Made by a program: the position numbers and the translations under genes. This document shows, piece after piece, positions 1-34,193 of a stretch of DNA of 34,193 nt. Positions within the stretch are counted from its first letter, which is position 1. Every line of letters begins with the position of its first letter. The notes beneath the pieces were generated by a model. That model ran no database searches. It saw only the letters and a list, made by a program, of their open reading frames with translations, and was not told the DNA's origin. Source of the stretch: a virus; IMG/VR virus record IMGVR_UViG_3300045988_182940, positions 1 through 34,193 of that record. One strand, 5' to 3'.

Positions 1-119
1 GCTTTTTTGTTATGGAGAAAGCATTATGGCGGAAGAGTTCAAAAAGACCGGACTTATGGACGGAATGGGCGAAAACAATGATGACGACGATTTCAAAAAC
101 GACCCCGAGGGCGGCGGGA
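1..119. repeat. Terminal direct repeat, copy 1 (identical to 34075-34193)
   Basis: gcttttttgttatggagaaagcattatggcgg...gagggcggcggga was read at both ends of the window. Confidence 0.97.
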
Positions 120-937
120 ACAAAGCACTTCGTTTGCCGTTCGCACTGTGCAAAGCAAAGGGCATAAAGATACAGGATTGGTGGACACCTCGCGACGCTT
201 GGAACGCGTTAAAGAACGGCGGATATGTCGAAGATGTGGACGAAGAATACGCTAAACACTTGAAAGAAGAAAAGCGCGAGAAAGATAAAAAGTGGCGCAA
301 AGAGAACCCCGGGCGTGTTGCCATGTGGAAAAAGCGCGCCGAAATCAAGAAAGCGCAACTCAAAAACCCCGAGCATAATCCGGATAAGAGTTATATTCAC
401 GAGGACGGTAAGATTGCCGGTGCCGCCAAAGGTAAGCCGATGACGTTTGAACAGGCGGACAGCGGAAGCGTAAATCCCTATTATGGAACGGAGCAAATCG
501 GCTATGTAACCAACTGTCAAACTTGCGTGGCAACGTTTGTTGCTCGAAAACTCGGCTACGATGTAAAAGCATTGCCGAACCTCAACAACAAAAACATAGC
601 AGACCTATCGCATAATGTATCGCTTGCTTATCTCGATAAAGACGGAAATCACCCGAAACAAGAAAGTAGCGACGGCTCGTTAATGAGCGAACCCGGAAAG
701 ACGTACGCGTTGCGTTGGGCTTGGAAAGGCAGAAGTTCGGGACATATCGTCCTGATGATGAACGACGGACAAGGAACGTATTTATATGACCCGCAAACGA
801 ACACGAAGTATAGCGGCAAATCGGCATATTCGTTCATATCTCGTGGTTATGGTTTCAAAAAAATGGATTTGACCGATTGCACAATCGATGAAAAATTCTG
901 CGATAAAATCATGAAAGGAGTAAAGAAAAATGGATGA
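26..937 (+). CDS. Late effector/toxin candidate with a charged N-terminal half and a C-terminal papain-fold Cys-His-Asp domain (Tox-PL1/glutamine-deamidase-like; a CHAP or NlpC/P60-type hydrolase is the alternative)
   Basis: GGAG lies 8 nt upstream of the ATG. Motifs: NPYYG..GYVTNCQTCVATFVARKLGYDVKALP (Cys164), SSGHIVLMM (His240), YLYDPQ (Asp255). The N-terminus MAEEFKKTGLMDGMGEN is shared with the 1142 gene. Confidence 0.55.
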   Translation: MAEEFKKTGLMDGMGENNDDDDFKNDPEGGGNKALRLPFALCKAKGIKIQDWWTPRDAWNALKNGGYVEDVDEEYAKHLKEEKREKDKKWRKENPGRVAMWKKRAEIKKAQLKNPEHNPDKSYIHEDGKIAGAAKGKPMTFEQADSGSVNPYYGTEQIGYVTNCQTCVATFVARKLGYDVKALPNLNNKNIADLSHNVSLAYLDKDGNHPKQESSDGSLMSEPGKTYALRWAWKGRSSGHIVLMMNDGQGTYLYDPQTNTKYSGKSAYSFISRGYGFKKMDLTDCTIDEKFCDKIMKGVKKNG

Positions 938-1141: not shown

Positions 1142-2071
1142 ATGGCAGATGAATTTAAGAAAAGCGGTTTGTTGGACGGCTTAGGTGAAAACGACGAAAT
1201 AGAACGTTGGATAACGGTCAAAGGCAATCACGTTCCGATAAAGAAAGGACAGTCGCAGGAAGAAGCAATCAAGCAGGCTTTCGGAGAAGCGGAAAAGACG
1301 CCCGAAATGAAGAAAAGCGGGCATATGGACGGCTTGGGAGAGTATAGCGAGAAAACTTCGGATGATACCGCCGAATCGGGATATAAAAGCGTAGACACGA
1401 AAACGTTTGTAAACACGCTGGCGGAAGCAAAAGCAACTGTTGCCAAAGACCGCCCGCAAGACGCTTGGAGAGTTTCGTCCCCGAATAGCGCAGTGTTTGA
1501 CGAAGAACATCCGAATGCAAAGAAATACACCACTCCCGGCGGAAGCACCGTTGCTATAACGCCCGACGGAGATATAGTGGCGGTTTGTAAGAGTACAAAC
1601 GACAGTTTGCACGGCAAACAGTTAATACAATTTGCAGTAAAGAACGGTGGGAACAAGTTAGACGCTTTCAGTGGATTGTGGAAGTTTTACACGCAGAACG
1701 GTTTTGAGCCTGTTTCGTGGACGCATTTCGTTGATAAAGAAGATGTGCGCCCCGACGATTGGAAACCCGAATACGGGAAAGAACCAGTTGTATTTTACAA
1801 ATATACAGGCAAAGCGACAAACGAATCACTTGAAGATTTTAAAAACAGAGTGCCGGAGAGCAAAGACTACTTTGCGGCGCAGAAAATAAGAGATGACCAA
1901 ATAAACGGAAAAGTCAAAGGGGTACATGCTATGACAAAAGAAAAAGAAGAGCAAATTAAGAGATTGGCAAAAGAAAAAGGTTTATCTTTTGCAAGCGCAA
2001 AGCGGATGCTTGAAGAAATGGAAGCGGATGATTTTGATTACGAACAATATATGGCTGAAATAGCATATTAA
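1142..2071 (+). CDS. Late effector candidate with a GNAT-like (acetyltransferase-fold) central domain and two copies of the shared leader motif
   Basis: GGAG SD. MADEFKKSGLLDGLGEN at residues 1-17 and EMKKSGHMDGLGEY at residues 55-68. Core STVAITPDGDIVAVCK...GKQLIQFAVKNGGNKLDAFSGLWKFYTQNGFEPV resembles GNAT motif A/B. Confidence 0.45.
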   Translation: MADEFKKSGLLDGLGENDEIERWITVKGNHVPIKKGQSQEEAIKQAFGEAEKTPEMKKSGHMDGLGEYSEKTSDDTAESGYKSVDTKTFVNTLAEAKATVAKDRPQDAWRVSSPNSAVFDEEHPNAKKYTTPGGSTVAITPDGDIVAVCKSTNDSLHGKQLIQFAVKNGGNKLDAFSGLWKFYTQNGFEPVSWTHFVDKEDVRPDDWKPEYGKEPVVFYKYTGKATNESLEDFKNRVPESKDYFAAQKIRDDQINGKVKGVHAMTKEKEEQIKRLAKEKGLSFASAKRMLEEMEADDFDYEQYMAEIAY

Positions 2072-2113
2072 AATCAAAAGCAAATATGGTTAAAAAACAG
2101 GAGGTAAAGAAGA

Positions 2114-2359
2114 ATGAAAGAAGTTGCTCCTACTTACGAAGAATTTTACAAAGAAGTAAAAGAGGGCTTTCGTTTTTGGTGGAAGAGCCTTTCCGAAAAA
2201 GAAGTCGATGACTATTTACATTCAGAAGAAGCACAAGAAGAAATCAAGTATAGATATAACGAAAATCTGAACGAGTTTAACAAAGGCGAAATTGACCGCA
2301 AAACGTTTATGATAGGTGGCGCAAGTTCAGTAGCATACTGCTTGCAAATGATGTACTAA
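2114..2359 (+). CDS. Hypothetical 81-aa protein downstream of the GNAT-like gene
   Basis: ORF track; AGGAGG SD 8 nt upstream. Confidence 0.6.
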   Translation: MKEVAPTYEEFYKEVKEGFRFWWKSLSEKEVDDYLHSEEAQEEIKYRYNENLNEFNKGEIDRKTFMIGGASSVAYCLQMMY

Positions 2360-2372
2360 GGAGAAAAAGGGA

Positions 2373-2522
2373 ATGAAAACATACTATGTATACGATACGC
2401 AGACGGACGAGTTTCTTTGTGAGGTGCGTGCATGGTCGGTGGTAGACGCCGAAATAAGAGCGTGCAAACAATTGAACAAAGGAAGCGACGATGTTTATGC
2501 GTTCACGGAGAAATTATACTAA
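2373..2522 (+). CDS. Hypothetical 49-aa protein (MKTYYVYDTQTDEFLCEVRAWSVVDAEIRACKQLNKGSDDVYAFTEKLY), below the ORF-track size cutoff
   Basis: Translated by hand. GGAGAAAAAGGG lies upstream of the ATG at 2373. It is tightly packed between neighbouring genes. Confidence 0.45.
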   Translation: MKTYYVYDTQTDEFLCEVRAWSVVDAEIRACKQLNKGSDDVYAFTEKLY

Positions 2523-2548
2523 CTAAAAACAAAAGGAGCAATAGAAGA

Positions 2549-2683
2549 ATGACGGCAGGCTTATTGGCGTACATATTTACCGGAATTGCGTTGGTAGCTT
2601 TTTATGTTTGTACTATTCTTTTGGTAACATCCGCCGACAAAGACGACAAAAAAGATAAAAAAGATAAAAAAGACGACAACTAA
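2549..2683 (+). CDS. 44-aa single-pass membrane protein with a DKDDKKDKKDKKDDN tail
   Basis: Internal ATG of the 2432 ORF, preceded by AAAGGAG. Hydrophobic helix LLAYIFTGIALVAFYVCTILLV. The longer ORF start overlaps the 2373 gene and has no SD. Confidence 0.5.
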   Translation: MTAGLLAYIFTGIALVAFYVCTILLVTSADKDDKKDKKDKKDDN

Positions 2684-2690
2684 AAACAAA

Positions 2691-2720
2691 AGGAGCAGAC
2701 AAAAAATCTGCTCCTTTTAA
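2691..2720. terminator. Intrinsic terminator between convergent gene sets, probably bidirectional
   Basis: AGGAGCAGA (2691-2699), a 7-nt loop, then TCTGCTCCT (2707-2715) followed by TTT. An A-run precedes the stem, which supplies the U-tract on the opposite strand. Confidence 0.8.
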
Positions 2721-2722
2721 TA

Positions 2723-2890
2723 TTACTTTTGCAAAGATTTAAGATACTGTTCAATCAGGAAGAGGATATATTCGGGTGGCTTTCTCGTCCCTTGCTCCCA
2801 ATTTCGGATAGTAGCAACGGGTACGTGAACAAGCAAAGCGAATTTACTTTGCGATAGCCCGGTAGAGGCTCGGAGTTCTTTAATCGTCAT
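2723..2890 (-). CDS. 55-aa XRE/MqsA-like helix-turn-helix protein (MTIKELRASTGLSQSKFALLVHVPVATIRNWEQGTRKPPEYILFLIEQYLKSLQK); last gene of the reverse cassette
   Basis: Translated by hand (below the ORF-track cutoff). AGAGGA SD 7 nt upstream. Classic HTH pattern LSQ..FA.....(V)..I..WE.G.R.P. Confidence 0.8.
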   Translation of the reverse strand: MTIKELRASTGLSQSKFALLVHVPVATIRNWEQGTRKPPEYILFLIEQYLKSLQK

Positions 2891-2901
2891 AGTTTAATCC
2901 T

Positions 2902-3117
2902 CTAATTTTCTTCGTATGCGTCGTTAAAACTTTCGGTTGAAAAATCGCTTTCGGTGCTTTGCTTGTACAAATCAATCTTATATTGGCTATATAGTTCTTC
3001 AACCGCTTCGCGCAAAGTTAAATCGTTTTTCTTTGCATAACTTTTTACTTCCTTACTATCCTTTTCGCTTAGGTAACAAGTATAAGTTACCGTTGCTTTA
3101 ACTTCGACTATAATCAT
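2902..3117 (-). CDS. Hypothetical 71-aa protein with an acidic C-terminus (ESDFSTESFNDAYEEN)
   Basis: ORF track. AAGGAG SD. The stop lies 11 nt before the HTH gene start. AT-rich codon usage. Confidence 0.6.
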   Translation of the reverse strand: MIIVEVKATVTYTCYLSEKDSKEVKSYAKKNDLTLREAVEELYSQYKIDLYKQSTESDFSTESFNDAYEEN

Positions 3118-3171
3118 TTTTCATACTCCTTTAATAGTCCGTCAATAATTTTATGAAAACTATAATATGCC

Positions 3172-3528
3172 TCAGACTGCTGTCCATTTTGTTATTAAAA
3201 ATATATCGTCAAATGCGCGAATAGAATATCTTCCGTTTAATGCGTATAATCTGTGGTTTTCTGCTATTGGATGATTATTGTCGATACCGTCGCAATCGTC
3301 AATCAAGATATGAGCGTTATTAAATCTTGCCGTGCCTAAATAATTGCTGTTATGCTCATAGTCTATGTTTTGATTTTTGCAATAATTTTCAAGTTCTTCG
3401 TAATTATCAAAAATGATAGCATACGTGTTTCCGTCCTCGCCATTTTGTTTTGGATAAGCAATAACATTGCCGTTTCCGCAATCGATTGCTAAACTACTTA
3501 TGTCGCTGTATGTGTCTATAACTTTCAT
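3172..3528 (-). CDS. Hypothetical 118-aa acidic, N/D-rich protein
   Basis: ORF track. AAGGAG SD. AT-rich compared with the flanking phage genes. Confidence 0.65.
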   Translation of the reverse strand: MKVIDTYSDISSLAIDCGNGNVIAYPKQNGEDGNTYAIIFDNYEELENYCKNQNIDYEHNSNYLGTARFNNAHILIDDCDGIDNNHPIAENHRLYALNGRYSIRAFDDIFLITKWTAV

Positions 3529-3575
3529 AATTTACTCCTTGCTTGCGTTTGACCGCACAAGCGCGGTTAATTATT

Positions 3576-3896
3576 TTAAGCGACGAAAATTTTTCTGTCG
3601 CATTTAGCCTGAGTTTTCTTTCCATAAAGCGAATACCACTTATCAGCCGTCGAGGTTATAAGCGTTTGCGCTTTTTCATTGTCGTTAGCAAAAACAGCTT
3701 CAAGGATATCTTTAACAGCACTTTCGCTTTGTTCGACAGAGTGGTTATCGTCATATCCGAAGTAATCGGCAAGGTTATACAGCTCTTGCATAAACCACTT
3801 TTCAACTTTAAGCTCGCCGCGCTTTGCTTTCCCGTAGATAACGCTTATCTGTCCTTTGCTGAACTCCGTTGCTTTCTGATAACCGTACTGCTTCAT
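3576..3896 (-). CDS. Hypothetical 106-aa protein, first gene of the reverse cassette, with a possible N-terminal HTH-like segment (QKATEFSKGQISVIYGKAKRG)
   Basis: ORF track; GAGGAG SD 6 nt upstream of the ATG at 3896. Confidence 0.6.
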   Translation of the reverse strand: MKQYGYQKATEFSKGQISVIYGKAKRGELKVEKWFMQELYNLADYFGYDDNHSVEQSESAVKDILEAVFANDNEKAQTLITSTADKWYSLYGKKTQAKCDRKIFVA

Positions 3897-3945
3897 TTTA
3901 AGCTCCTCGGACGATTTATTTCGTCCATTTGTTTTATCTGTCTAT

Positions 3946-3974
3946 ATTGTACCACATTGACATATATTTGTCAA
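3946..3974 (-). promoter_or_regulatory. Near-consensus leftward promoter for the reverse cassette (TTGACA-17-TGgTACAAT)
   Basis: On the minus strand, -35 TTGACA = 3974-3969, a 17-nt spacer follows, and -10 TACAAT = 3951-3946 preceded by TGg. Confidence 0.65.
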
Positions 3975-3986
3975 GCATTTTTTAAT
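3957..3986 (+). promoter_or_regulatory. Possible rightward promoter for the packaging/head operon; its -35 forms a palindrome with the leftward -35
   Basis: TTGACA (3957-3962), then 18 nt, then TTTAAT (3981-3986). TTGACAtatattTGTCAA is a perfect 6+6 inverted repeat. The -10 is only 5/6 and lacks the conserved A at position 2. Confidence 0.35.
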
Positions 3987-4077
3987 AAAAATCTAAAAAA
4001 AATCTAAAAAAATGAAAACAATCTCAAAAATGGGGTTGTTTTTTTATTTGGGAAAAACTTTTAAGGAGAAAAAAATT

Positions 4078-4398
4078 ATGGCAACAAATTTAACACGCGA
4101 AGATATGAAACGCATGATGAGTGCGAATCCGAGCATGAGAGAACCGGAAGAAGAGATAAAGGAGAAAGTCTATCCAAATATAGCAAAAGAGCGCGTAGAG
4201 CAAGAGTTAGACGAGTTACACGAAAAGATACTTAAATTGACTTGCTTTCTATACGGCAGAAAAATACCGGAGCGCGTTGTAACGCCTGAAATGCGTGAGC
4301 TTATGAAACAACAGCTCAAACACATGCAAGCGTATGCAGGAACGCTTCAAGACCGTTTAATCATATGGGACTTGTACAAAAACGAACATAAGGAGTAA
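4078..4398 (+). CDS. Hypothetical 106-aa helical protein upstream of the small terminase
   Basis: Internal ATG of the 4012 ORF, preceded by AAGGAG. The 4012 start lacks an SD. Confidence 0.6.
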   Translation: MATNLTREDMKRMMSANPSMREPEEEIKEKVYPNIAKERVEQELDELHEKILKLTCFLYGRKIPERVVTPEMRELMKQQLKHMQAYAGTLQDRLIIWDLYKNEHKE

Positions 4399-4402
4399 GA
4401 CT

Positions 4403-4861
4403 ATGCCAAAAAAGAAAAATTCAGAGCCGAAGGAGCGGTACAGAGCCGAGTGGTTAGGTCAACCGCTAACCGCCGAGGAAGCGCGAGCAAAAGGCAAGGC
4501 GGGCGGCATTAAGTCGGGACAGGTTCGTAAAGAGAAAAAAACGCTAAGAGAAACGATGAAATTGCTTCTTAAAGAGCAGTTCAAATTCAACAATCCCGTA
4601 ACGGACGAGTTCACAAGCGGCGACGGTTATGCTATGTGGTGCGCACAGGTAACGGCAGGCGCATTAAAAGGCGACAGAAAGTGCCTTGAATACCTGCGTG
4701 ATATTATCGGGGAGAATCCGTCCACCAAAGTTGTTGGTGCGGAAGAAGAGCCGCTCCGTAAGGTGGAAATAGAGTTTGTAGACAAAAGCAAGCGTTCTAA
4801 AACGGAAAGCGACCCGAAAATAGTCGGAGAGCAAAGTCCGACCGTCAGCGATGAAAGTTGA
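4403..4861 (+). CDS. terS: Terminase small subunit (probable)
   Basis: 152 aa, directly upstream of and overlapping terL. Basic N-terminus with KGKAGGIKSGQVRKEKK, a pattern common in small terminases. Confidence 0.6.
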   Translation: MPKKKNSEPKERYRAEWLGQPLTAEEARAKGKAGGIKSGQVRKEKKTLRETMKLLLKEQFKFNNPVTDEFTSGDGYAMWCAQVTAGALKGDRKCLEYLRDIIGENPSTKVVGAEEEPLRKVEIEFVDKSKRSKTESDPKIVGEQSPTVSDES

Positions 4862-6287
4862 GATTGCGGACGTATATGAACCTGCGTTCGATATGTCCAC
4901 GCCGAAATGTTGTAAAAACCTATGGTATGCGCCGAGAGCGTGCGGCAAATCGTCAGCGTTAGGTCGTATCTTATGGCTGTATTACATTAGCTTTCCCGAT
5001 TATGACGTGGCGATAGGCGTAGACAGTCTTACAAACGCGGGCGACGGCGTATTAAGCGAGTTTCAGTCGTTCCTTGAAAGCGAGAACCTTGCGGACGATT
5101 GGATATTCAGTGCCAAATCGTGCTATATGAAAGGCGCGCGTAATCAGATACGCTCGTATGCTGTTCAGACGAATAAGTTAGACAACGTGAACGCAACGAA
5201 GTCGAAGAAGCTCATACGTCCTGTTTCGTTGTTCGTAATGGACGAAGTGCAGAAGTTGCATAACAAAGGAATTTTGGATAACTGTTTATCCACGTTCTTA
5301 CGACAGATGAAAGCAGGGCATAGCAAGGTTATCCTTGCAGGAAACCCCGACCGTGCGGCGATGTGGTTTGATGACTACTACAAAGTCAAGTCGGAAGATG
5401 ACGAGTGGACGGTTATAAAGCCGACATATCTCGATATCATAGCGTGGCTTCCCGACGCTTTAATTCACGAAATCGAGATGATGAGAAAAACCGACCCGGT
5501 GTCGTACGCTCAAATATACTTAGGCGACCTCGAAGTAGCGGGCTGGGAACAAACGTTTCATTCGTTTATCGAAAGAGAGCATTATATTCCGAGAGAAGAG
5601 TTACTTGCCGCTCCGCAAAAGACGGGCGATATGCTTCACTCTATCGTTATCGGCATAGACGACGCGGAAAGCCAAGACGCCATAGCGGGCGAAGCCGTTA
5701 TGGTGCAGAGAAACGGACATATGAAAGTCAACGAGGGATTGTATCGCTCTTGCAAGGAATTACCGGTAAAGCCTGCACTTACGGAGCGGTGTGATATCGT
5801 AGCAGAGTATCTCGACTATATACAGGCGCATTTCAATCCCGAGCGTGCGATACCGATAATAATGGTGTTCGACTGCGCAAGCGGTATGTATAGACAAATG
5901 GCGGTTATGAAACGGACAGACCGCAATTTTATGAGGTGGAGAAACGTGTTATTAAAGCCTTACACAACCAAAGGAGAGAAAGAGGAACAATTGGACGAAG
6001 TAAACACGGCGTTTGCGAACGGGATATTGAAAGTCGTAAACGTAGACAGGTATTCGCCGAAGTATTCAAACGCTATGCTTGTCAAACAGATAAAAGCGTT
6101 GCGGTACTTGGACAACAAGAAGATAGACCCGACCATTCCGAACGACTGTACGGACGCATTGCAGTACGCGGTTATGACCGTGCTTGCGAATCCGTATCGT
6201 TTGTCGTTCCCGGAAAGACGCGCTATTTACGACGCGGACAACGGAGCGGAAACGTTCCTCGAAAAACTGAAATATGGAGAACTGTAA
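4851..6287 (+). CDS. terL: Terminase large subunit
   Basis: 478 aa. Walker A-like PRACGKSS, Walker B LFVMDEV, AGNP coupling motif, and the nuclease-domain acidic motif VIGIDDAES. Confidence 0.9.
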   Translation: MKVEIADVYEPAFDMSTPKCCKNLWYAPRACGKSSALGRILWLYYISFPDYDVAIGVDSLTNAGDGVLSEFQSFLESENLADDWIFSAKSCYMKGARNQIRSYAVQTNKLDNVNATKSKKLIRPVSLFVMDEVQKLHNKGILDNCLSTFLRQMKAGHSKVILAGNPDRAAMWFDDYYKVKSEDDEWTVIKPTYLDIIAWLPDALIHEIEMMRKTDPVSYAQIYLGDLEVAGWEQTFHSFIEREHYIPREELLAAPQKTGDMLHSIVIGIDDAESQDAIAGEAVMVQRNGHMKVNEGLYRSCKELPVKPALTERCDIVAEYLDYIQAHFNPERAIPIIMVFDCASGMYRQMAVMKRTDRNFMRWRNVLLKPYTTKGEKEEQLDEVNTAFANGILKVVNVDRYSPKYSNAMLVKQIKALRYLDNKKIDPTIPNDCTDALQYAVMTVLANPYRLSFPERRAIYDADNGAETFLEKLKYGEL

Positions 6288-26312: not shown

Positions 26313-27551
26313 TCAGCCCTCAAAGCGTTTAAGTTTTACAAAATAATCAGTAAAAGGCGATTTTTCGCGTTTCATAAAATGCGTATAAACGTCTTTTGTC
26401 ATCGATAAAGTAGCGTGACCGAGCCATTTTTTGGTTAAAAGGTCGTCAATTTGTGTTAAATGGCACATAGTAGCGAATGTATGACGTGTAGAATGAACGG
26501 AAACGTCGGTAAAGCCTAATTTTACAAAAGTTCTGCCGAAAGCGAGTTTAACGGCGTTGTAGGTATAATTTTCCGAAACGCAGTAGTCGAGTTTTTCTCG
26601 TAAACTCTCGTCATAATTGATAAAGCGTTGTGACGTGCGGTTTTTCGTGTCGTGTTCGATGATACCGTCGCGGTTCATCATCTTATTGACCCGTATTTCG
26701 TCATCGCCTATATCGTTGGGCGTGAGAGCCAAAAATTCACTTATGCGCATACCCGTACAGCAAAGGACGGTAAAGAGCCGACTATACTTTTCGGGTAAAG
26801 TCGTAAGAATAGCCGTTTGTTCTTCCGCAGTAAAAGCGCGTTTATGCTCCGACTTAACTTTCGGGCGTTTCAAGAGTTCGCAAGGGTTTTTACGTATTTT
26901 CTCCGAAATGACCGCTTGACGAAGAGCGGAATTGACGACATCGAATACTTTGCGCCGTGAGTTTTCACCGTTTATAGATATAAAAAATTGTTGCAGAATA
27001 TCGGGCGTAAGTTGTTCCATAGGCGTTGCGATTGTCTTTATCTTATTAAATGCGTCCATATAACCTCTTTTCGAGTTCGAGCGTAAGTACGGTTCTTTAT
27101 ATGTTTCGTACCAATAATTAACCCATTCGATAAAAGACGAGCCTTTCTTTGTGACGCGTTCCGTTTTTTCCTTTTCTTTTAAAGGGATATTCTTTAATTT
27201 TTCAATAACCTCCTTTTGAGTTTTAGCCGTTACCGTGTGGCGTTGGAATCTACCCTCCCACCACGTGTAGCGGCTATTTTTGTTTTTCCGGGAACGTTTT
27301 CGAATAGACCCCGCCCCGAAAGGCAGATAAACAGACATTTTTTCCTCCGCCTGAATATCCGATAACAACCTGAAATTAACGTCAGGATAAGGGGACGGCT
27401 TTCCGCCCTCACTTACAATACGAAAAGGCGATTTGCGCGTAATCGGTTCATTTGCGAAATCGTCGTTTCCTATTATTTTGCCGCACAATAACGAGGCTTT
27501 TTGTAAAGCCTCCGCTAAAAGGTCGAGCAATCTCCTTGTATCATCTTCCAC
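26313..27551 (-). CDS. int: Tyrosine integrase (site-specific recombinase); the alternative start at 27338 has a stronger SD
   Basis: C-terminal catalytic signature HSTRHTFATMCH...LGHATLSMTKDVYTHF. GSIRKR...W.GRF arm-binding-type N-terminus begins at Met72 (GGAGGaaaaaATG). Confidence 0.93.
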   Translation of the reverse strand: MEDDTRRLLDLLAEALQKASLLCGKIIGNDDFANEPITRKSPFRIVSEGGKPSPYPDVNFRLLSDIQAEEKMSVYLPFGAGSIRKRSRKNKNSRYTWWEGRFQRHTVTAKTQKEVIEKLKNIPLKEKEKTERVTKKGSSFIEWVNYWYETYKEPYLRSNSKRGYMDAFNKIKTIATPMEQLTPDILQQFFISINGENSRRKVFDVVNSALRQAVISEKIRKNPCELLKRPKVKSEHKRAFTAEEQTAILTTLPEKYSRLFTVLCCTGMRISEFLALTPNDIGDDEIRVNKMMNRDGIIEHDTKNRTSQRFINYDESLREKLDYCVSENYTYNAVKLAFGRTFVKLGFTDVSVHSTRHTFATMCHLTQIDDLLTKKWLGHATLSMTKDVYTHFMKREKSPFTDYFVKLKRFEG

Positions 27552-27576: not shown

Positions 27577-27927
27577 TTAACCTACATCGCTTTGGGAGTT
27601 TTTCAGAAACGCTTCGGCATAGCCGAGAACTTTTCCTTGCTGTACTGCTGTCAGTTGCCTGAACAGAGCGAGCATTTCTATCTCTTGCGATGTTAAGTTA
27701 CTTGATTGTGTACGAGCCGCTTTCGGGGCAGGCTCCGTGTAAAAATAATTCTCGGGCAAATCGAACGCTTCGGAAATTCTTGCAAGCGTGCGCCGAGAGG
27801 GGGCTGATAACCCGTTTTTCCAACGTTGAATAGCCCCGTTCGCTAAACCGACTTTTTTTTCAAATGTATGGGGGTTTAGCCCTTGTTTTTCGATTAGGTC
27901 ATATACTTTTTCAATGATTAAATCCAT
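27577..27927 (-). CDS. CI-like XRE-family repressor (116 aa) with no S24 peptidase domain
   Basis: HTH KVGLANGAIQRWKNGLSAPSRRTLARISEAF. Divergent from the cro-like gene and adjacent to the integrase. GGAG SD. Confidence 0.85.
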   Translation of the reverse strand: MDLIIEKVYDLIEKQGLNPHTFEKKVGLANGAIQRWKNGLSAPSRRTLARISEAFDLPENYFYTEPAPKAARTQSSNLTSQEIEMLALFRQLTAVQQGKVLGYAEAFLKNSQSDVG

Positions 27928-33529: not shown

Positions 33530-33917
33530 AAGAAGAGAGATTGAAAGGGCGTTCTATGATTATCAAAAAAACCGTATGGAAGCGGCGGAGTACATATCGG
33601 ACTTATGCTCGACCAAATCCCCGGTGTTGGAGAATTTAGGTCACGGAAGCGGCATAAGCGACCCGACGGCGTTATCGGGAGTAAAACTTGCCGAGTACAA
33701 AAAATACTTGTGGTGTGAAGTGGTTGAAAAGACCTGCACGACGTTTCGCTTCGAGTATGAATACGAACTCATCAAACTGCGGTATTTCAATCACATATCC
33801 CGAAACAGCGTGAACTCGTATCTCAATATATCAGAGCGAACGCATAGTTATTGGTTGGAGCGAATACTGTCTACGGCGGAGCGTTGGGCGTACGAATTAG
33901 GCATTTACACCGATTGA
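33516..33917 (+). CDS. Late-gene transcriptional activator, RinA/ArpU-like
   Basis: 133 aa; last early gene before the late cassette. The pattern IERAFYDY...SDPTA...LIKLRYFN...ISERTHSYWLERILSTAERWAYELG matches RinA-family organisation, with a sigma region-4-like C-terminal HTH. Confidence 0.65.
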   Translation: MDNGRRREIERAFYDYQKNRMEAAEYISDLCSTKSPVLENLGHGSGISDPTALSGVKLAEYKKYLWCEVVEKTCTTFRFEYEYELIKLRYFNHISRNSVNSYLNISERTHSYWLERILSTAERWAYELGIYTD

Positions 33918-34074: not shown

Positions 34075-34193
34075 GCTTTTTTGTTATGGAGAAAGCATTA
34101 TGGCGGAAGAGTTCAAAAAGACCGGACTTATGGACGGAATGGGCGAAAACAATGATGACGACGATTTCAAAAACGACCCCGAGGGCGGCGGGA
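34075..34193. repeat. Terminal direct repeat, copy 2 (identical to 1-119); most likely an assembly overlap of a circular or circularly permuted molecule
   Basis: Exact 119-nt match to the window start. It cuts through the 5' end of the first CDS, so it is not a biological boundary. Confidence 0.95.

What the first reader, a model, noticed from the sequence alone, without database searches (positions are those of the whole stretch)
2723..3974. AT-rich reverse-strand four-gene cassette ending in a tiny HTH gene (Acr-Aca-like or TA-like) between effector and packaging modules
Four genes (106, 118, 71 and 55 aa) run against the flow of all surrounding late genes. They are visibly more AT-rich than their neighbours. 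They have their own near-consensus promoter (TTGACA-17-TGgTACAAT, 3974-3946) and strong SD sites, and they end at the bidirectional terminator.

The last gene is a minimal XRE/MqsA-type HTH (…ATIRNWEQGTRKPP…). The preceding product is small with an acidic tail.

It is established that anti-CRISPR and anti-defence operons typically consist of small, unrelated proteins followed by a short HTH autoregulator (Aca). It is also established that prophage-expressed morons are often oppositely oriented, with their own promoter and terminator.

Inference: this is an anti-defence locus, an exclusion or TA-type locus, or another lysogenic-conversion locus. None of the three upstream proteins resembles a family I recognise.
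Basis: partly seen in the sequence, partly recalled or inferred. Interest (0 to 1): 0.7.

Follow-up and report, generated by a model that had tools for sequence, protein, structure and literature searches.

The report
Self-regulated accessory gene cassette in phage
This is a real, self-contained four-gene accessory operon in a temperate gut-Clostridia phage, built like the operons phages use to carry anti-defence genes, but none of its three non-regulatory proteins has a known function.

Summary
Four minus-strand genes (106, 118, 71 and 55 aa) lie between a near-consensus promoter (3974-3946) and a bidirectional terminator (2687-2719). The block is among the most AT-poor-in-GC 4% of the window.

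- The 106-aa first gene (g1) belongs to an uncharacterised family, about 73 protein clusters, found only in gut and rumen Clostridia phage metagenomes.
- In about 50 distinct loci g1 is the first gene behind a consensus promoter. The genes after it differ from phage to phage.
- The downstream genes are enriched in very acidic small proteins. The only recognisable domains among them are DNA-binding ones (XRE HTH or RHH), free-standing or fused.
- Promoter repeats tend to track the DNA-binding type: several HTH lineages have palindromes and several RHH lineages have direct repeats, with exceptions. This suggests self-repression.
- g3 is a 281-bp mobile insertion, about 98% identical in DNA to a segment of an unrelated phage.
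- g4 resembles HigA2 antitoxin and Aca10 HTHs about equally.
- g1 and g2 give confident AlphaFold models with no known fold match.

Best reading: an autoregulated moron of the Acr-Aca type, probably anti-defence (about 0.45). Toxin-antitoxin is disfavoured because g1 also occurs alone. Function remains untested.

The parts
3946..3974 (-). Sigma-A type promoter: -35 TTGACA (3974-3969), 17-nt spacer, -16 TGTG (3956-3953), -10 TACAAT (3951-3946)
   Evidence: 11/12 match with TG, the best site in the region. The same design precedes g1 homologues: 37 of 60 distinct upstream regions match at 11/12 or better, against 27 of 227 for other genes with at least 100 nt of upstream gap.
3957..3974 (.). Inverted repeat TTGACA-N6-TGTCAA overlapping the -35 and spacer; candidate operator
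   Evidence: Arms are kept while the centre varies in close relatives (aatata / aatatg / aatgtg). On its own it is not significant (shuffle p about 0.06-0.12).
3975..4011 (-). A/T-tract repeats (TTTTTTAGA units) upstream of the -35; UP-element-like or curved DNA
   Evidence: Copy number varies between relatives (L015 has more units). Function is inferred.
3897..3939 (-). About 43-nt 5' UTR with hairpin GGACGA-aataaa-TCGTCC (3926-3909) next to SD GAGGAG (3908-3903)
   Evidence: -9.1 kcal/mol, z -3.5. A hairpin at the same position with different stem sequences occurs in about 7 lineages.
3576..3896 (-). g1: 106-aa conserved leader gene of the cassette family; function unknown
   Evidence: 73 homologous clusters, all about 105 aa, with no Pfam domain. 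AF2 pLDDT 91.7. No PDB fold or sequence match. It is the first gene behind the promoter in every locus examined apart from L072/L073, where a 122-127-aa gene abuts it.
3543..3570 (.). Stem-loop between g1 and g2
   Evidence: listed on the + strand. No T-run follows it on the minus strand. Role unknown.
3172..3528 (-). g2: 118-aa acidic (pI 4.5) beta-rich protein; a rare downstream gene
   Evidence: Only 2 close and 5 distant cluster representatives among 1.8 billion. AF2 pLDDT 92.8. No significant PDB fold match; the best is ComJ, TM 0.53, E 0.8.
2903..3183 (-). 281-bp inserted module that carries g3 with its own RBS and gives g2 a new 3' end
   Evidence: Absent from L014, L015 and L040-L043, where g1 is 98-100% identical. 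About 98% DNA identity to a segment in an unrelated early operon, L006.
2902..3117 (-). g3: 71-aa acidic protein, possibly ribbon-helix-helix
   Evidence: Weak hits only: phrog_582 Arc-like E 0.058, DUF6364 E 0.023. One homologue is named Arc-like by a source. No PDB sequence match.
2723..2890 (-). g4: 55-aa XRE-family HTH (YiaG/HigA2/Aca10 type); candidate autorepressor
   Evidence: Pfam HTH_3 E 3.9e-10. PDB: Atu1735 1.8e-5, HigA-2 1.4e-4, Aca10 (7xi5) 3.7e-4.
2687..2719 (.). Bidirectional intrinsic terminator closing the cassette and the converging + strand operon
   Evidence: 14-bp stem with a T-run on both strands. Conserved in relatives.

Best explanation
The region is a self-contained accessory operon (a moron) in a complete, circular, temperate phage genome of about 34 kb from gut Clostridia.

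**How it most likely works.**
- A maximal-strength host sigma-A promoter drives one mRNA. It has a -35 box, a -16 TGTG element and a -10 box, with A/T tracts upstream.
- The mRNA encodes g1, g2, g3 and g4 and stops at a bidirectional terminator.
- g1 is the conserved core payload of a widespread cassette family.
- g2 and g3 are exchangeable, acidic add-on genes. g3 is a recent 281-bp insertion.
- g4, a 55-aa XRE HTH, most likely binds as a dimer to the repeat overlapping the -35 and spacer and represses the operon. This would give a burst of expression on entry, then low steady expression in the lysogen.

**Most probable role.** The payload neutralises host defences or otherwise takes over the host, as in anti-CRISPR/Aca and anti-restriction operons.

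**Shown:** the anatomy, the family-wide architecture, the turnover of downstream genes, and the tendency of promoter repeats to match the DNA-binding domain type.

**Inferred:** that g4 binds this promoter, the timing of expression, and the anti-defence activity.
For: **Anatomy.**

**g1 family.**
- 73 clusters of about 105 aa.
- First gene behind a consensus promoter in about 50 distinct loci. 37 of 60 upstream regions match at 11/12 or better, against 27 of 227 controls.
- Positions are typical of accessory or anti-defence loci. They include the lysin-integrase junction, the first early gene next to a CI-like repressor, and the position before the terminase.

**Downstream genes.**
- Non-homologous between lineages: 70 families among 169 genes.
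- The gene after g1 has pI below 4.6 in 8 of 16 lineages, against 11% of other small ORFs (Fisher p 4e-4).
- The only Pfam domains among 71 dereplicated downstream proteins are HTH or RHH, plus one HNH.
- DNA-binding domains occur free or fused to acidic domains, as in Acr-Aca fusions.

**Operators.**
- Five of eight lineages with this HTH type carry TACCAC..GTGGTA-type palindromes filling the spacer (the window's own lineage is not one of them).
- About half of the RHH lineages carry direct repeats flanking the -35 and preceding the -10.

**g4.** It is similar to Aca10, a 65-aa dimeric repressor that binds a palindrome over its acr promoter.

**g1 as payload.**
- g1 occurs alone in L053 as promoter, g1, terminator.
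- L083 carries two g1 paralogues.
- Both fit an effector rather than a regulator or a toxin.

**g3.** A mobile module.

**Published precedent.** A conserved acr with hypervariable neighbours at prophage ends in gut Clostridia (AcrIIA22, PMC8545432).
Against: - No homology of g1, g2 or g3 to any known anti-defence protein. No dedicated Acr or anti-defence HMM library was available, so absence is not fully tested.
- Acidic small proteins are common in phages. My ORF baseline includes uncurated ORF calls.
- The window's own palindrome is not significant alone.
- The window's palindrome type also occurs in two lineages whose regulator is an RHH (L033, L088). The operator-regulator pairing is therefore not clean.
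- The cassette HTHs are closer in sequence to HigA2 antitoxin than to Aca10.
- Some cassettes have no DNA-binding gene (L027, L011/L020).
- There are no expression or phenotype data.
Confidence: 0.45

Rival explanations
1. Prophage-expressed toxin-antitoxin, abortive-infection or superinfection-exclusion module. An upstream protein (g1 or g2) is a toxin or effector, and the HTH protein is a HigA2/MqsA-like antitoxin and repressor, in the toxin-first gene order.
For: - The g4 and cassette HTH profile hits HigA-2 antitoxin at 1.7e-10 and NCBIfam MqsA-family at 1.6e-6.
- Some lineages have g1 followed by a 144-154-aa protein with an extra N-domain and a C-terminal HTH. This is the HigA2/MqsA architecture.
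- The promoter is strong, carries repeats, and could be active in a lysogen.
Against: - g4 is a bare 55-aa HTH with no neutralising domain.
- The g1 and g2 models do not resemble RelE, MqsR or other toxin folds, and there are no PADLOC or Pfam hits.
- The supposed antitoxin domains are non-homologous between lineages although g1 is 50-100% identical.
- g1 exists alone with promoter and terminator in L053. In L072/73 no gene follows it, although a 122-127-aa gene abuts it upstream.
Confidence: 0.15
2. Developmental control module of the phage, such as an antirepressor or immI-like switch, or a regulator of late or packaging genes. Here g1 would act on the phage repressor or on transcription, with g3 (RHH) and g4 (HTH) as its controllers.
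For: - In L011 and L016, g1 is the first gene divergent from a CI-like HTH.
- In the window and L002 the cassette abuts the terminase module.
- Two small DNA-binding-type proteins plus a strong operator-bearing promoter recall P22 Pant-arc-ant/mnt (own knowledge).
Against: - The position is not conserved. Most lineages place the cassette at the lysin-integrase end.
- g1 is highly conserved while the phage repressors nearby are unrelated.
- There is no Ant, Rha or BRO domain.
- g3 is dispensable, being absent in the closest relatives.
- The RHH assignment of g3 is weak.
- The window's palindrome does not recur in the immunity region.
Confidence: 0.12
3. Some other lysogenic-conversion or host-modulating load that is neither defence nor counter-defence, for example altering host physiology in the gut. 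It would be expressed from the prophage under HTH feedback.
For: - Moron architecture, deviant composition, and location at prophage ends in many lineages.
- No family assignment that would point elsewhere.
Against: - No signal peptides, enzymes or membrane segments are evident in g1-g4 (read from the sequences; not run through a predictor).
- Downstream-gene turnover and strong acidity are more typical of arms-race inhibitors.
Confidence: 0.18

Closest known systems
Anti-CRISPR operons with an Aca autorepressor (e.g. acrIC7-acrIC6-aca10; Aca1 and Aca2 systems)
   Same: - A strong promoter drives small unrelated proteins and ends in a tiny HTH gene.
- A repeat overlaps the promoter.
- The upstream genes turn over between relatives.
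- DNA-binding domains are sometimes fused to the effector.
- g4 aligns to Aca10 (7xi5) at E 3.7e-4, and Aca10 is also a dimeric mini-HTH of about 60 aa.
   Different: - No Acr homologue is present.
- The conserved element here is the first gene (g1), not the regulator.
- Regulators are interchangeable, HTH or RHH.
- g4 is no closer to Aca10 than to antitoxin HTHs.
- Inhibition of any defence system is untested.
AcrIIA22 hypervariable loci of gut clostridial prophages (PMC8545432); Listeria acrIIA1-anchored loci (own knowledge)
   Same: One conserved small gene is kept while its neighbours are shuffled, at prophage ends in human-gut Clostridia. Many g1 lineages show the same pattern.
   Different: - g1 (106 aa, helical) is unrelated to AcrIIA22 (54 aa, PC4-like).
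- g1 is always promoter-proximal.
- In this window the cassette lies before the terminase module, not at the prophage end.
Phage morons (Hendrix/Juhala concept; own knowledge)
   Same: Own promoter and terminator, opposite orientation, deviant base composition, and presence or absence between related genomes.
   Different: Here the moron is itself modular: a conserved leader, swappable downstream genes and a regulator. It forms a recognisable family across many phages.
HigBA2/MqsRA-type type II toxin-antitoxin modules
   Same: Small genes in toxin-first order, an XRE HTH of the same subfamily as the last gene, and promoter repeats.
   Different: No toxin fold, no neutralising domain in g4, partners not co-conserved, and g1 occurs alone.

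Membership tests
Acr-Aca type anti-defence operon | Small genes co-transcribed from their own promoter, with an associated small HTH (Aca) gene | tested here: met
   Four tightly spaced genes sit between the promoter and terminator. The last is HTH_3, E 3.9e-10.
Acr-Aca type anti-defence operon | Aca belongs to a described Aca family | tested here: inconclusive
   Aca10 (7xi5) is hit at 3.7e-4, but Atu1735 and HigA-2 score better. No Aca HMM set was available.
Acr-Aca type anti-defence operon | Inverted repeat operator overlapping the promoter and bound by the Aca | tested here: inconclusive
   The repeat is present (3957-3974) but has shuffle p of 0.06-0.12. Family-wide, repeat type tends to follow DNA-binding domain type, with exceptions. 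Binding is not testable here.
Acr-Aca type anti-defence operon | At least one gene homologous to a known Acr or anti-defence protein | tested here: not met
   No hit in Pfam, PHROGs, NCBIfam, PDB sequence or PDB fold searches. Dedicated anti-defence libraries were not available.
Acr-Aca type anti-defence operon | Inhibition of a defence system | not testable with these tools
   Needs plaque or transformation assays.
Type II toxin-antitoxin (HigBA/MqsRA-like) | Toxin with a RelE, MqsR or other toxin fold | tested here: not met
   The AF2 models of g1 (pLDDT 91.7) and g2 (92.8) have no such PDB match. There are no Pfam or PADLOC hits.
Type II toxin-antitoxin (HigBA/MqsRA-like) | Antitoxin combines a DNA-binding domain with a toxin-neutralising domain | tested here: not met
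   g4 is 55 aa, and the HTH_3 match covers residues 3-51.
Type II toxin-antitoxin (HigBA/MqsRA-like) | Obligate co-occurrence of the two partners | tested here: not met
   g1 is found alone in L053. In L072/73 it has no gene after it, only an abutting upstream gene of 122-127 aa. Its partners elsewhere are non-homologous.
Moron | Own promoter and terminator, deviant composition, present or absent between related phages | tested here: met
   The cassette's position differs among phages.
XRE-family HTH (Pfam HTH_3), for g4 | Score above the Pfam gathering threshold | tested here: met
   40.1 bits against a cut-off of 23.
Arc/MetJ ribbon-helix-helix, for g3 | Significant profile match to an RHH family | tested here: inconclusive
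   Only sub-threshold hits (E 0.02-0.06). There is no PDB sequence hit.
P22 immI-type antirepressor operon | Antirepressor (Ant, Rha or BRO type) gene | tested here: not met
   No such domain in g1, g2 or g3.

The most novel reading that the evidence does not exclude
The g1 family is a previously unrecognised, widely distributed anti-defence or host-takeover protein of gut and rumen Clostridia phages. Together with its consensus promoter, it marks hypervariable counter-defence islands. The dozens of unrelated acidic proteins behind it (g2, g3, the 'WNHLT' family, and the HTH- and RHH-fused forms) would then be a large untapped set of new defence inhibitors. g1 could serve as a guilt-by-association anchor, much as aca1 and acrIIA1 did.
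Probability: 0.3. Interest if true: 0.75.

Novelty: new member of a known kind. Interest (0 to 1): 0.5.

Why it matters
Phages of gut Clostridia are almost entirely uncultured, and their counter-defence repertoire is largely unknown. If the reading is right, this cassette family gives three things:
- a conserved, easily searched anchor gene (g1) that points to about 70 families of candidate inhibitors;
- a natural set of matched mini-repressors and operators (HTH with palindromes, RHH with direct repeats) on maximal-strength Gram-positive promoters, which could be useful as genetic parts;
- a clear example of gene-sized module exchange, the 281-bp g3 insertion, between unrelated phages.

If the reading is wrong, the cassette is still a well-delimited moron whose conserved leader protein and g2 both give confident predicted structures with no match among solved structures.

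Tried and rejected
- **DNA similarity.** blastn of the cassette against 50,697 cultured phage records found nothing. tblastn of g1 against the cultured phages and against 72,556 plasmids also found nothing. The family is known only from metagenomes and MAGs.
- **RNA families.** Rfam found nothing above threshold. The weak hits are the terminator hairpin.
- **Family libraries.** Pfam, PHROGs, PADLOC and NCBIfam gave nothing significant for g1, g2 or g3.
- **g1 structure.** Foldseek found no PDB match. In BFVD it found only g1's own family plus one unnamed 84-aa protein. The 'FadR C-terminal domain' label on a BFVD homologue is not backed by any score here, so I rejected it.
- **g2 structure.** The best fold similarity is ComJ, a nuclease inhibitor (TM 0.53, E 0.8). 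It is a tempting lead but not significant.
- **PDB profile searches.** g1, g2, g3 and the commonest acidic downstream family gave nothing meaningful.
- **g1 as operator-binding regulator.** Rejected, because operators differ widely while g1 is conserved, and the repeats tend to follow the downstream DNA-binding domain type instead.
- **g1 as toxin.** Rejected as the main reading, because g1 occurs alone in some loci.
- **Control by the phage repressor.** The window's palindrome does not recur elsewhere in the genome.
- **Aca10 membership.** Other cassette HTHs (L058, L063) do not retrieve Aca10. The Aca10-like look of some operators stays an observation.
- **5' UTR hairpin.** A formal covariation test could not be made, because loop lengths differ and the UTRs do not align.
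Full report
**1. The observation**

- g1, 3576-3896, 106 aa
- g2, 3172-3528, 118 aa
- g3, 2902-3117, 71 aa
- g4, 2723-2890, 55 aa

Each has an AGGAG-type ribosome-binding site.

The promoter is TTGACA (3974-3969), 17 nt, then TGTG-g-TACAAT (3956-3946). It scores 11/12 with the Gram-positive -16 element and is the best site in 2000-4600.

A 14-bp-stem terminator at 2687-2719 scores on both strands.

The cassette has GC 0.373 against 0.445 for the window. It falls in the lowest 4% of equal-sized windows, and the window's GC minimum lies inside it. g2 and g3 are the most AT-rich (0.345), while g1 (0.417) and g4 (0.435) are close to the genome value.

Three corrections apply:
- The AT-rich zone also covers the small + strand ORFs at 1800-2722 and the spacer up to 4400.
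- The left neighbours are not late genes.
- The palindrome TTGACAaatataTGTCAA is real but is not statistically compelling alone. Shuffle p is 0.06-0.12, and the pattern is not enriched in the window.

**2. Context**

The window ends share a 119-bp repeat, so this is a complete circular genome of about 34.07 kb. It is temperate:
- tyrosine integrase at 26313-27551 (-)
- CI-like HTH at 27577-27927 (-)
- large terminase at 4851-6287
- a crAss001_48-like gene just right of the cassette
- a protein with a Gln_amidase papain-fold toxin domain at 26-937

Relatives come from human-gut and rumen metagenomes and from Clostridia, Lachnospiraceae and Eubacteriales MAGs. No cultured phage or plasmid has the DNA or g1.

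**3. The proteins**

*g4* is an XRE HTH (Pfam HTH_3, E 3.9e-10) of the 'W-E-x-G-x-R-x-P' YiaG/MqsA type (NCBIfam).
- Its nearest solved relatives are Atu1735 (1.8e-5), HigA-2 antitoxin (1.4e-4) and 7xi5 (3.7e-4).
- 7xi5 is Aca10, a 65-aa dimeric repressor that binds a 19-21-bp palindrome over the acrIC7-acrIC6-aca10 promoter (PMC9410881).
- A profile of nine cassette HTHs ranks HigA-2 (1.7e-10) above Aca10 (2.5e-5).
- The HTH subfamily therefore cannot separate antitoxin from Aca.

*g1* has no match in any family library.
- It has 73 homologous clusters, nearly all 104-106 aa, with 48-99% identity.
- Its AlphaFold model is confident (pLDDT 91.7): a beta-hairpin plus five helices.
- It matches nothing in the PDB by fold or sequence.
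- In BFVD it matches only its own family and one unnamed protein.

*g2* (pI 4.5) has two close clusters, and only five more distant representatives among 1.8 billion.
- Its model is also confident (pLDDT 92.8, mostly beta).
- It has no significant PDB match. The best by TM-score is the nuclease inhibitor ComJ (TM 0.53, E 0.8), which is a lead only.

*g3* (pI 4.5) has 16 close homologues and only sub-threshold Arc/RHH hints.

**4. The cassette is modular**

Relatives whose g1 is 98-100% identical carry g1-g2-g4 without g3 (L014, L015, L040-L043). The difference is a clean 281-bp insertion, window 2903-3183. It supplies a new stop for g2, an RBS and the whole of g3.

That segment is about 98% identical in DNA to part of an early operon of an otherwise unrelated phage (L006), and the flanks there are unrelated. 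g3 is therefore a recently moved single-gene module and not an integral part of the operon.

**5. The cassette family**

I collected 83 loci carrying g1.

In every locus examined g1 is the first gene behind a near-consensus promoter. The exceptions are L072/L073, where a 122-127-aa gene abuts or overlaps its start. 37 of 60 distinct upstream regions match TTGACA-N16-18-TATAAT at 11/12 or better. For other genes with at least 100 nt of upstream gap the figure is 27 of 227.

The position in the phage genome varies:
- Most lineages place it between the lysis genes and the integrase, at the prophage end.
- Some place it as the first early gene, divergent from a CI-like repressor (L011, L016).
- One places it ahead of recombination and replication genes (L001).
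- Two place it before the terminase (L002 on the same strand, this window on the opposite strand).

What follows g1 is not conserved:
- 169 downstream genes fall into 70 families.
- The gene immediately after g1 has pI below 4.6 in 8 of 16 dereplicated lineages. The figure is 11% for 176 other small ORFs (Fisher p 4e-4). The baseline uses my own ORF calls.
- Among 71 dereplicated downstream proteins the only Pfam domains are DNA-binding, plus one HNH: HTH_3 in 12, HTH_31 in 8, HTH_26 in 5, and RHH_1, NikA-like and TacA1 in one each. There is no toxin, defence or structural family. PHROGs adds only regulators and unknowns.
- The DNA-binding domains are either free-standing (54-64 aa) or fused N- or C-terminally to unannotated, mostly acidic domains.
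- g1 also occurs with nothing after it. L053 has promoter, g1 and terminator. L072/73 have no gene after g1, though the 122-127-aa gene abuts it upstream. One phage carries two g1 paralogues (L083).

**6. Who controls the promoter**

Repeats overlapping the promoter are strong in several lineages, with arms of 7-13 bp that 0-4% of shuffles reach. They differ between lineages although g1 is conserved. They tend to follow the type of DNA-binding gene in the cassette:
- Five of the eight lineages with the YiaG/MqsA-type HTH (L063, L022, L025, L089, L058) have TACCAC...GTGGTA-type palindromes filling the -35/-10 spacer. The window's lineage, L002 and L068 do not.
- About half of the lineages with the small RHH family (L054, L079, L080, L023, L060) have direct repeats, one copy upstream of the -35 and one before the -10.

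This is what self-repression by the cassette's own regulator predicts, and it argues against g1 as the operator-binding protein.

The rule is not perfect:
- The window's TTGACA-N6-TGTCAA arrangement recurs in two RHH lineages (L033, L088).
- A few cassettes have a strong repeat but no regulator (L027, L053).

In the window's close relatives the arms are kept while the centre changes. That is weak support for g4 binding there.

**7. Mechanism proposed**

*Shown:* a strong promoter, one transcription unit and a terminator. Also shown are a conserved leader gene, exchangeable acidic downstream genes, a terminal mini-HTH, and a family-level link between repeats and regulator type.

*Inferred:* host RNA polymerase fires the promoter as soon as the DNA enters. 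g1, g2 and g3 are made first. g4 accumulates, dimerises on the repeat at 3957-3974 and throttles the operon, leaving low expression in the lysogen. I rate a counter-defence or takeover payload as the most likely role, for four reasons:
- The architecture fits.
- The downstream genes are acidic and turn over.
- DNA-binding domains are fused to effector-like domains, as in AcrIIA1, AcrIIA13, AcrIIA15 and AcrIF24 (listed in PMC9410881).
- The genomic positions match the AcrIIA22 precedent in gut clostridial prophages (PMC8545432).

**8. Rivals**

*Toxin-antitoxin or exclusion.* This reading is favoured by the HigA2/MqsA-like HTH and the toxin-first order. It is disfavoured on four counts:
- g4 is a bare HTH.
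- No toxin fold is present.
- The partners are non-homologous between lineages.
- g1 occurs alone.

*Developmental switch (immI-like).* This fits L011 and L016. It does not fit the variable position, the dispensable g3, or the absence of an antirepressor domain.

*Other lysogenic-conversion load.* This cannot be excluded.

**9. Verdict**

This is a new member of the moron / Acr-Aca-like operon kind. It belongs to a widespread but undescribed cassette family anchored by an uncharacterised 106-aa protein.

My confidence is high (about 0.8) in the organisational claims and moderate (about 0.4-0.45) in the anti-defence function. Interest is 0.5. It is not strange in kind, but it is a concrete and testable lead into the counter-defence repertoire of uncultured gut Clostridia phages.

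Noticed in passing
window 1-119 and 34075-34193: The two ends of the window are an identical 119-bp direct repeat. The contig is therefore a circularly closed, complete phage genome of about 34.07 kb, and gene 26-937 continues the early arm that ends at 33917.
   Followed up: partly
window 26-937 and 1142-2071 (+): Two adjacent proteins of about 305 aa share only an N-terminal motif, MA[ED]EFKK[ST]GL[ML]DG[ML]GEN. The motif recurs at residues 55-67 of the second protein. The first carries a Gln_amidase papain-fold polymorphic-toxin domain (E 1.5e-7). The shared leader could be a targeting or processing signal for virion-delivered effectors.
   Followed up: partly
window 3909-3926 (-); L001, L002, L012, L016, L017, L022, L074 at the same position in the UTR: A small hairpin begins about 13 nt after the predicted transcript start and ends 1-4 nt before the SD (window: -9.1 kcal/mol, z -3.5). 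It recurs in about 7 lineages with different stem sequences. Other lineages instead share a 5'-proximal GTTAAGGAA. It may be an mRNA stabiliser or a translational element. No formal covariation test was possible.
   Followed up: partly
window 4014-4043 (+): A + strand terminator-like hairpin with a T-run lies between the cassette promoter and the crAss001_48-like gene. The real start of that gene is probably ATG 4078, since homologues are called at 106 aa. No room is left for a promoter after the hairpin, so the packaging and late operon may depend on read-through or antitermination.
   Followed up: no
L058, L053, L063, L025 promoters (upstream of g1): Palindromes in lineages with the HTH regulator resemble the published Aca10 operator ATACGCTCATTGAGCGTAT in length and central CTCA-T-TGAG core. 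Examples are TTATCACTCAATGAGTGATAA and ATACCACGCATTGCGTGGTAT. However, those HTHs do not retrieve Aca10 in sequence searches.
   Followed up: partly
L036 4001-5776, L037 1119-2496, L038 990-2666: Distant g2 relatives sit directly upstream of an FtsK/SpoIIIE-type ATPase of about 340 aa in two elements. In L038 a g2 relative itself heads a cassette with the same consensus promoter and UTR hairpin design, followed by very acidic proteins.
   Followed up: partly
L083 4001-4318 and 5260-5580: One phage carries two divergent g1 paralogues 1.2 kb apart, with a 383-bp gap before the second.
   Followed up: no
L011_1, L020_1, L023_1, L027_1, L051_1, L068_4 (proteins following g1): A recurrent acidic domain of about 70-100 aa has the motif GD-x-F...[ED]EA...W[NE]H[LW]T..[ED][QK]. 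It is the commonest downstream family and occurs free or fused to an HTH. It has no Pfam or PDB match and only sub-threshold PHROG hits.
   Followed up: partly
window 2432-2683 (+) and 2373-2522 (+): Two overlapping small ORFs lie just left of the terminator. The longer has a hydrophobic segment and a KDDKKDKKDKKDDN tail. It is unclear which of the two is real.
   Followed up: no
L003-L005 (elements with PcfJ/PcfK, DUF3846, SNF2, PAPS-reductase/ParB_N): In a non-phage-like mobile element, g1 leads an operon with an SNF2 helicase and an IbrA/IbrB-like pair. The element also encodes a PcfK-domain protein, which is the Pfam family of AcrIIA9 (PMC6739104).
   Followed up: no
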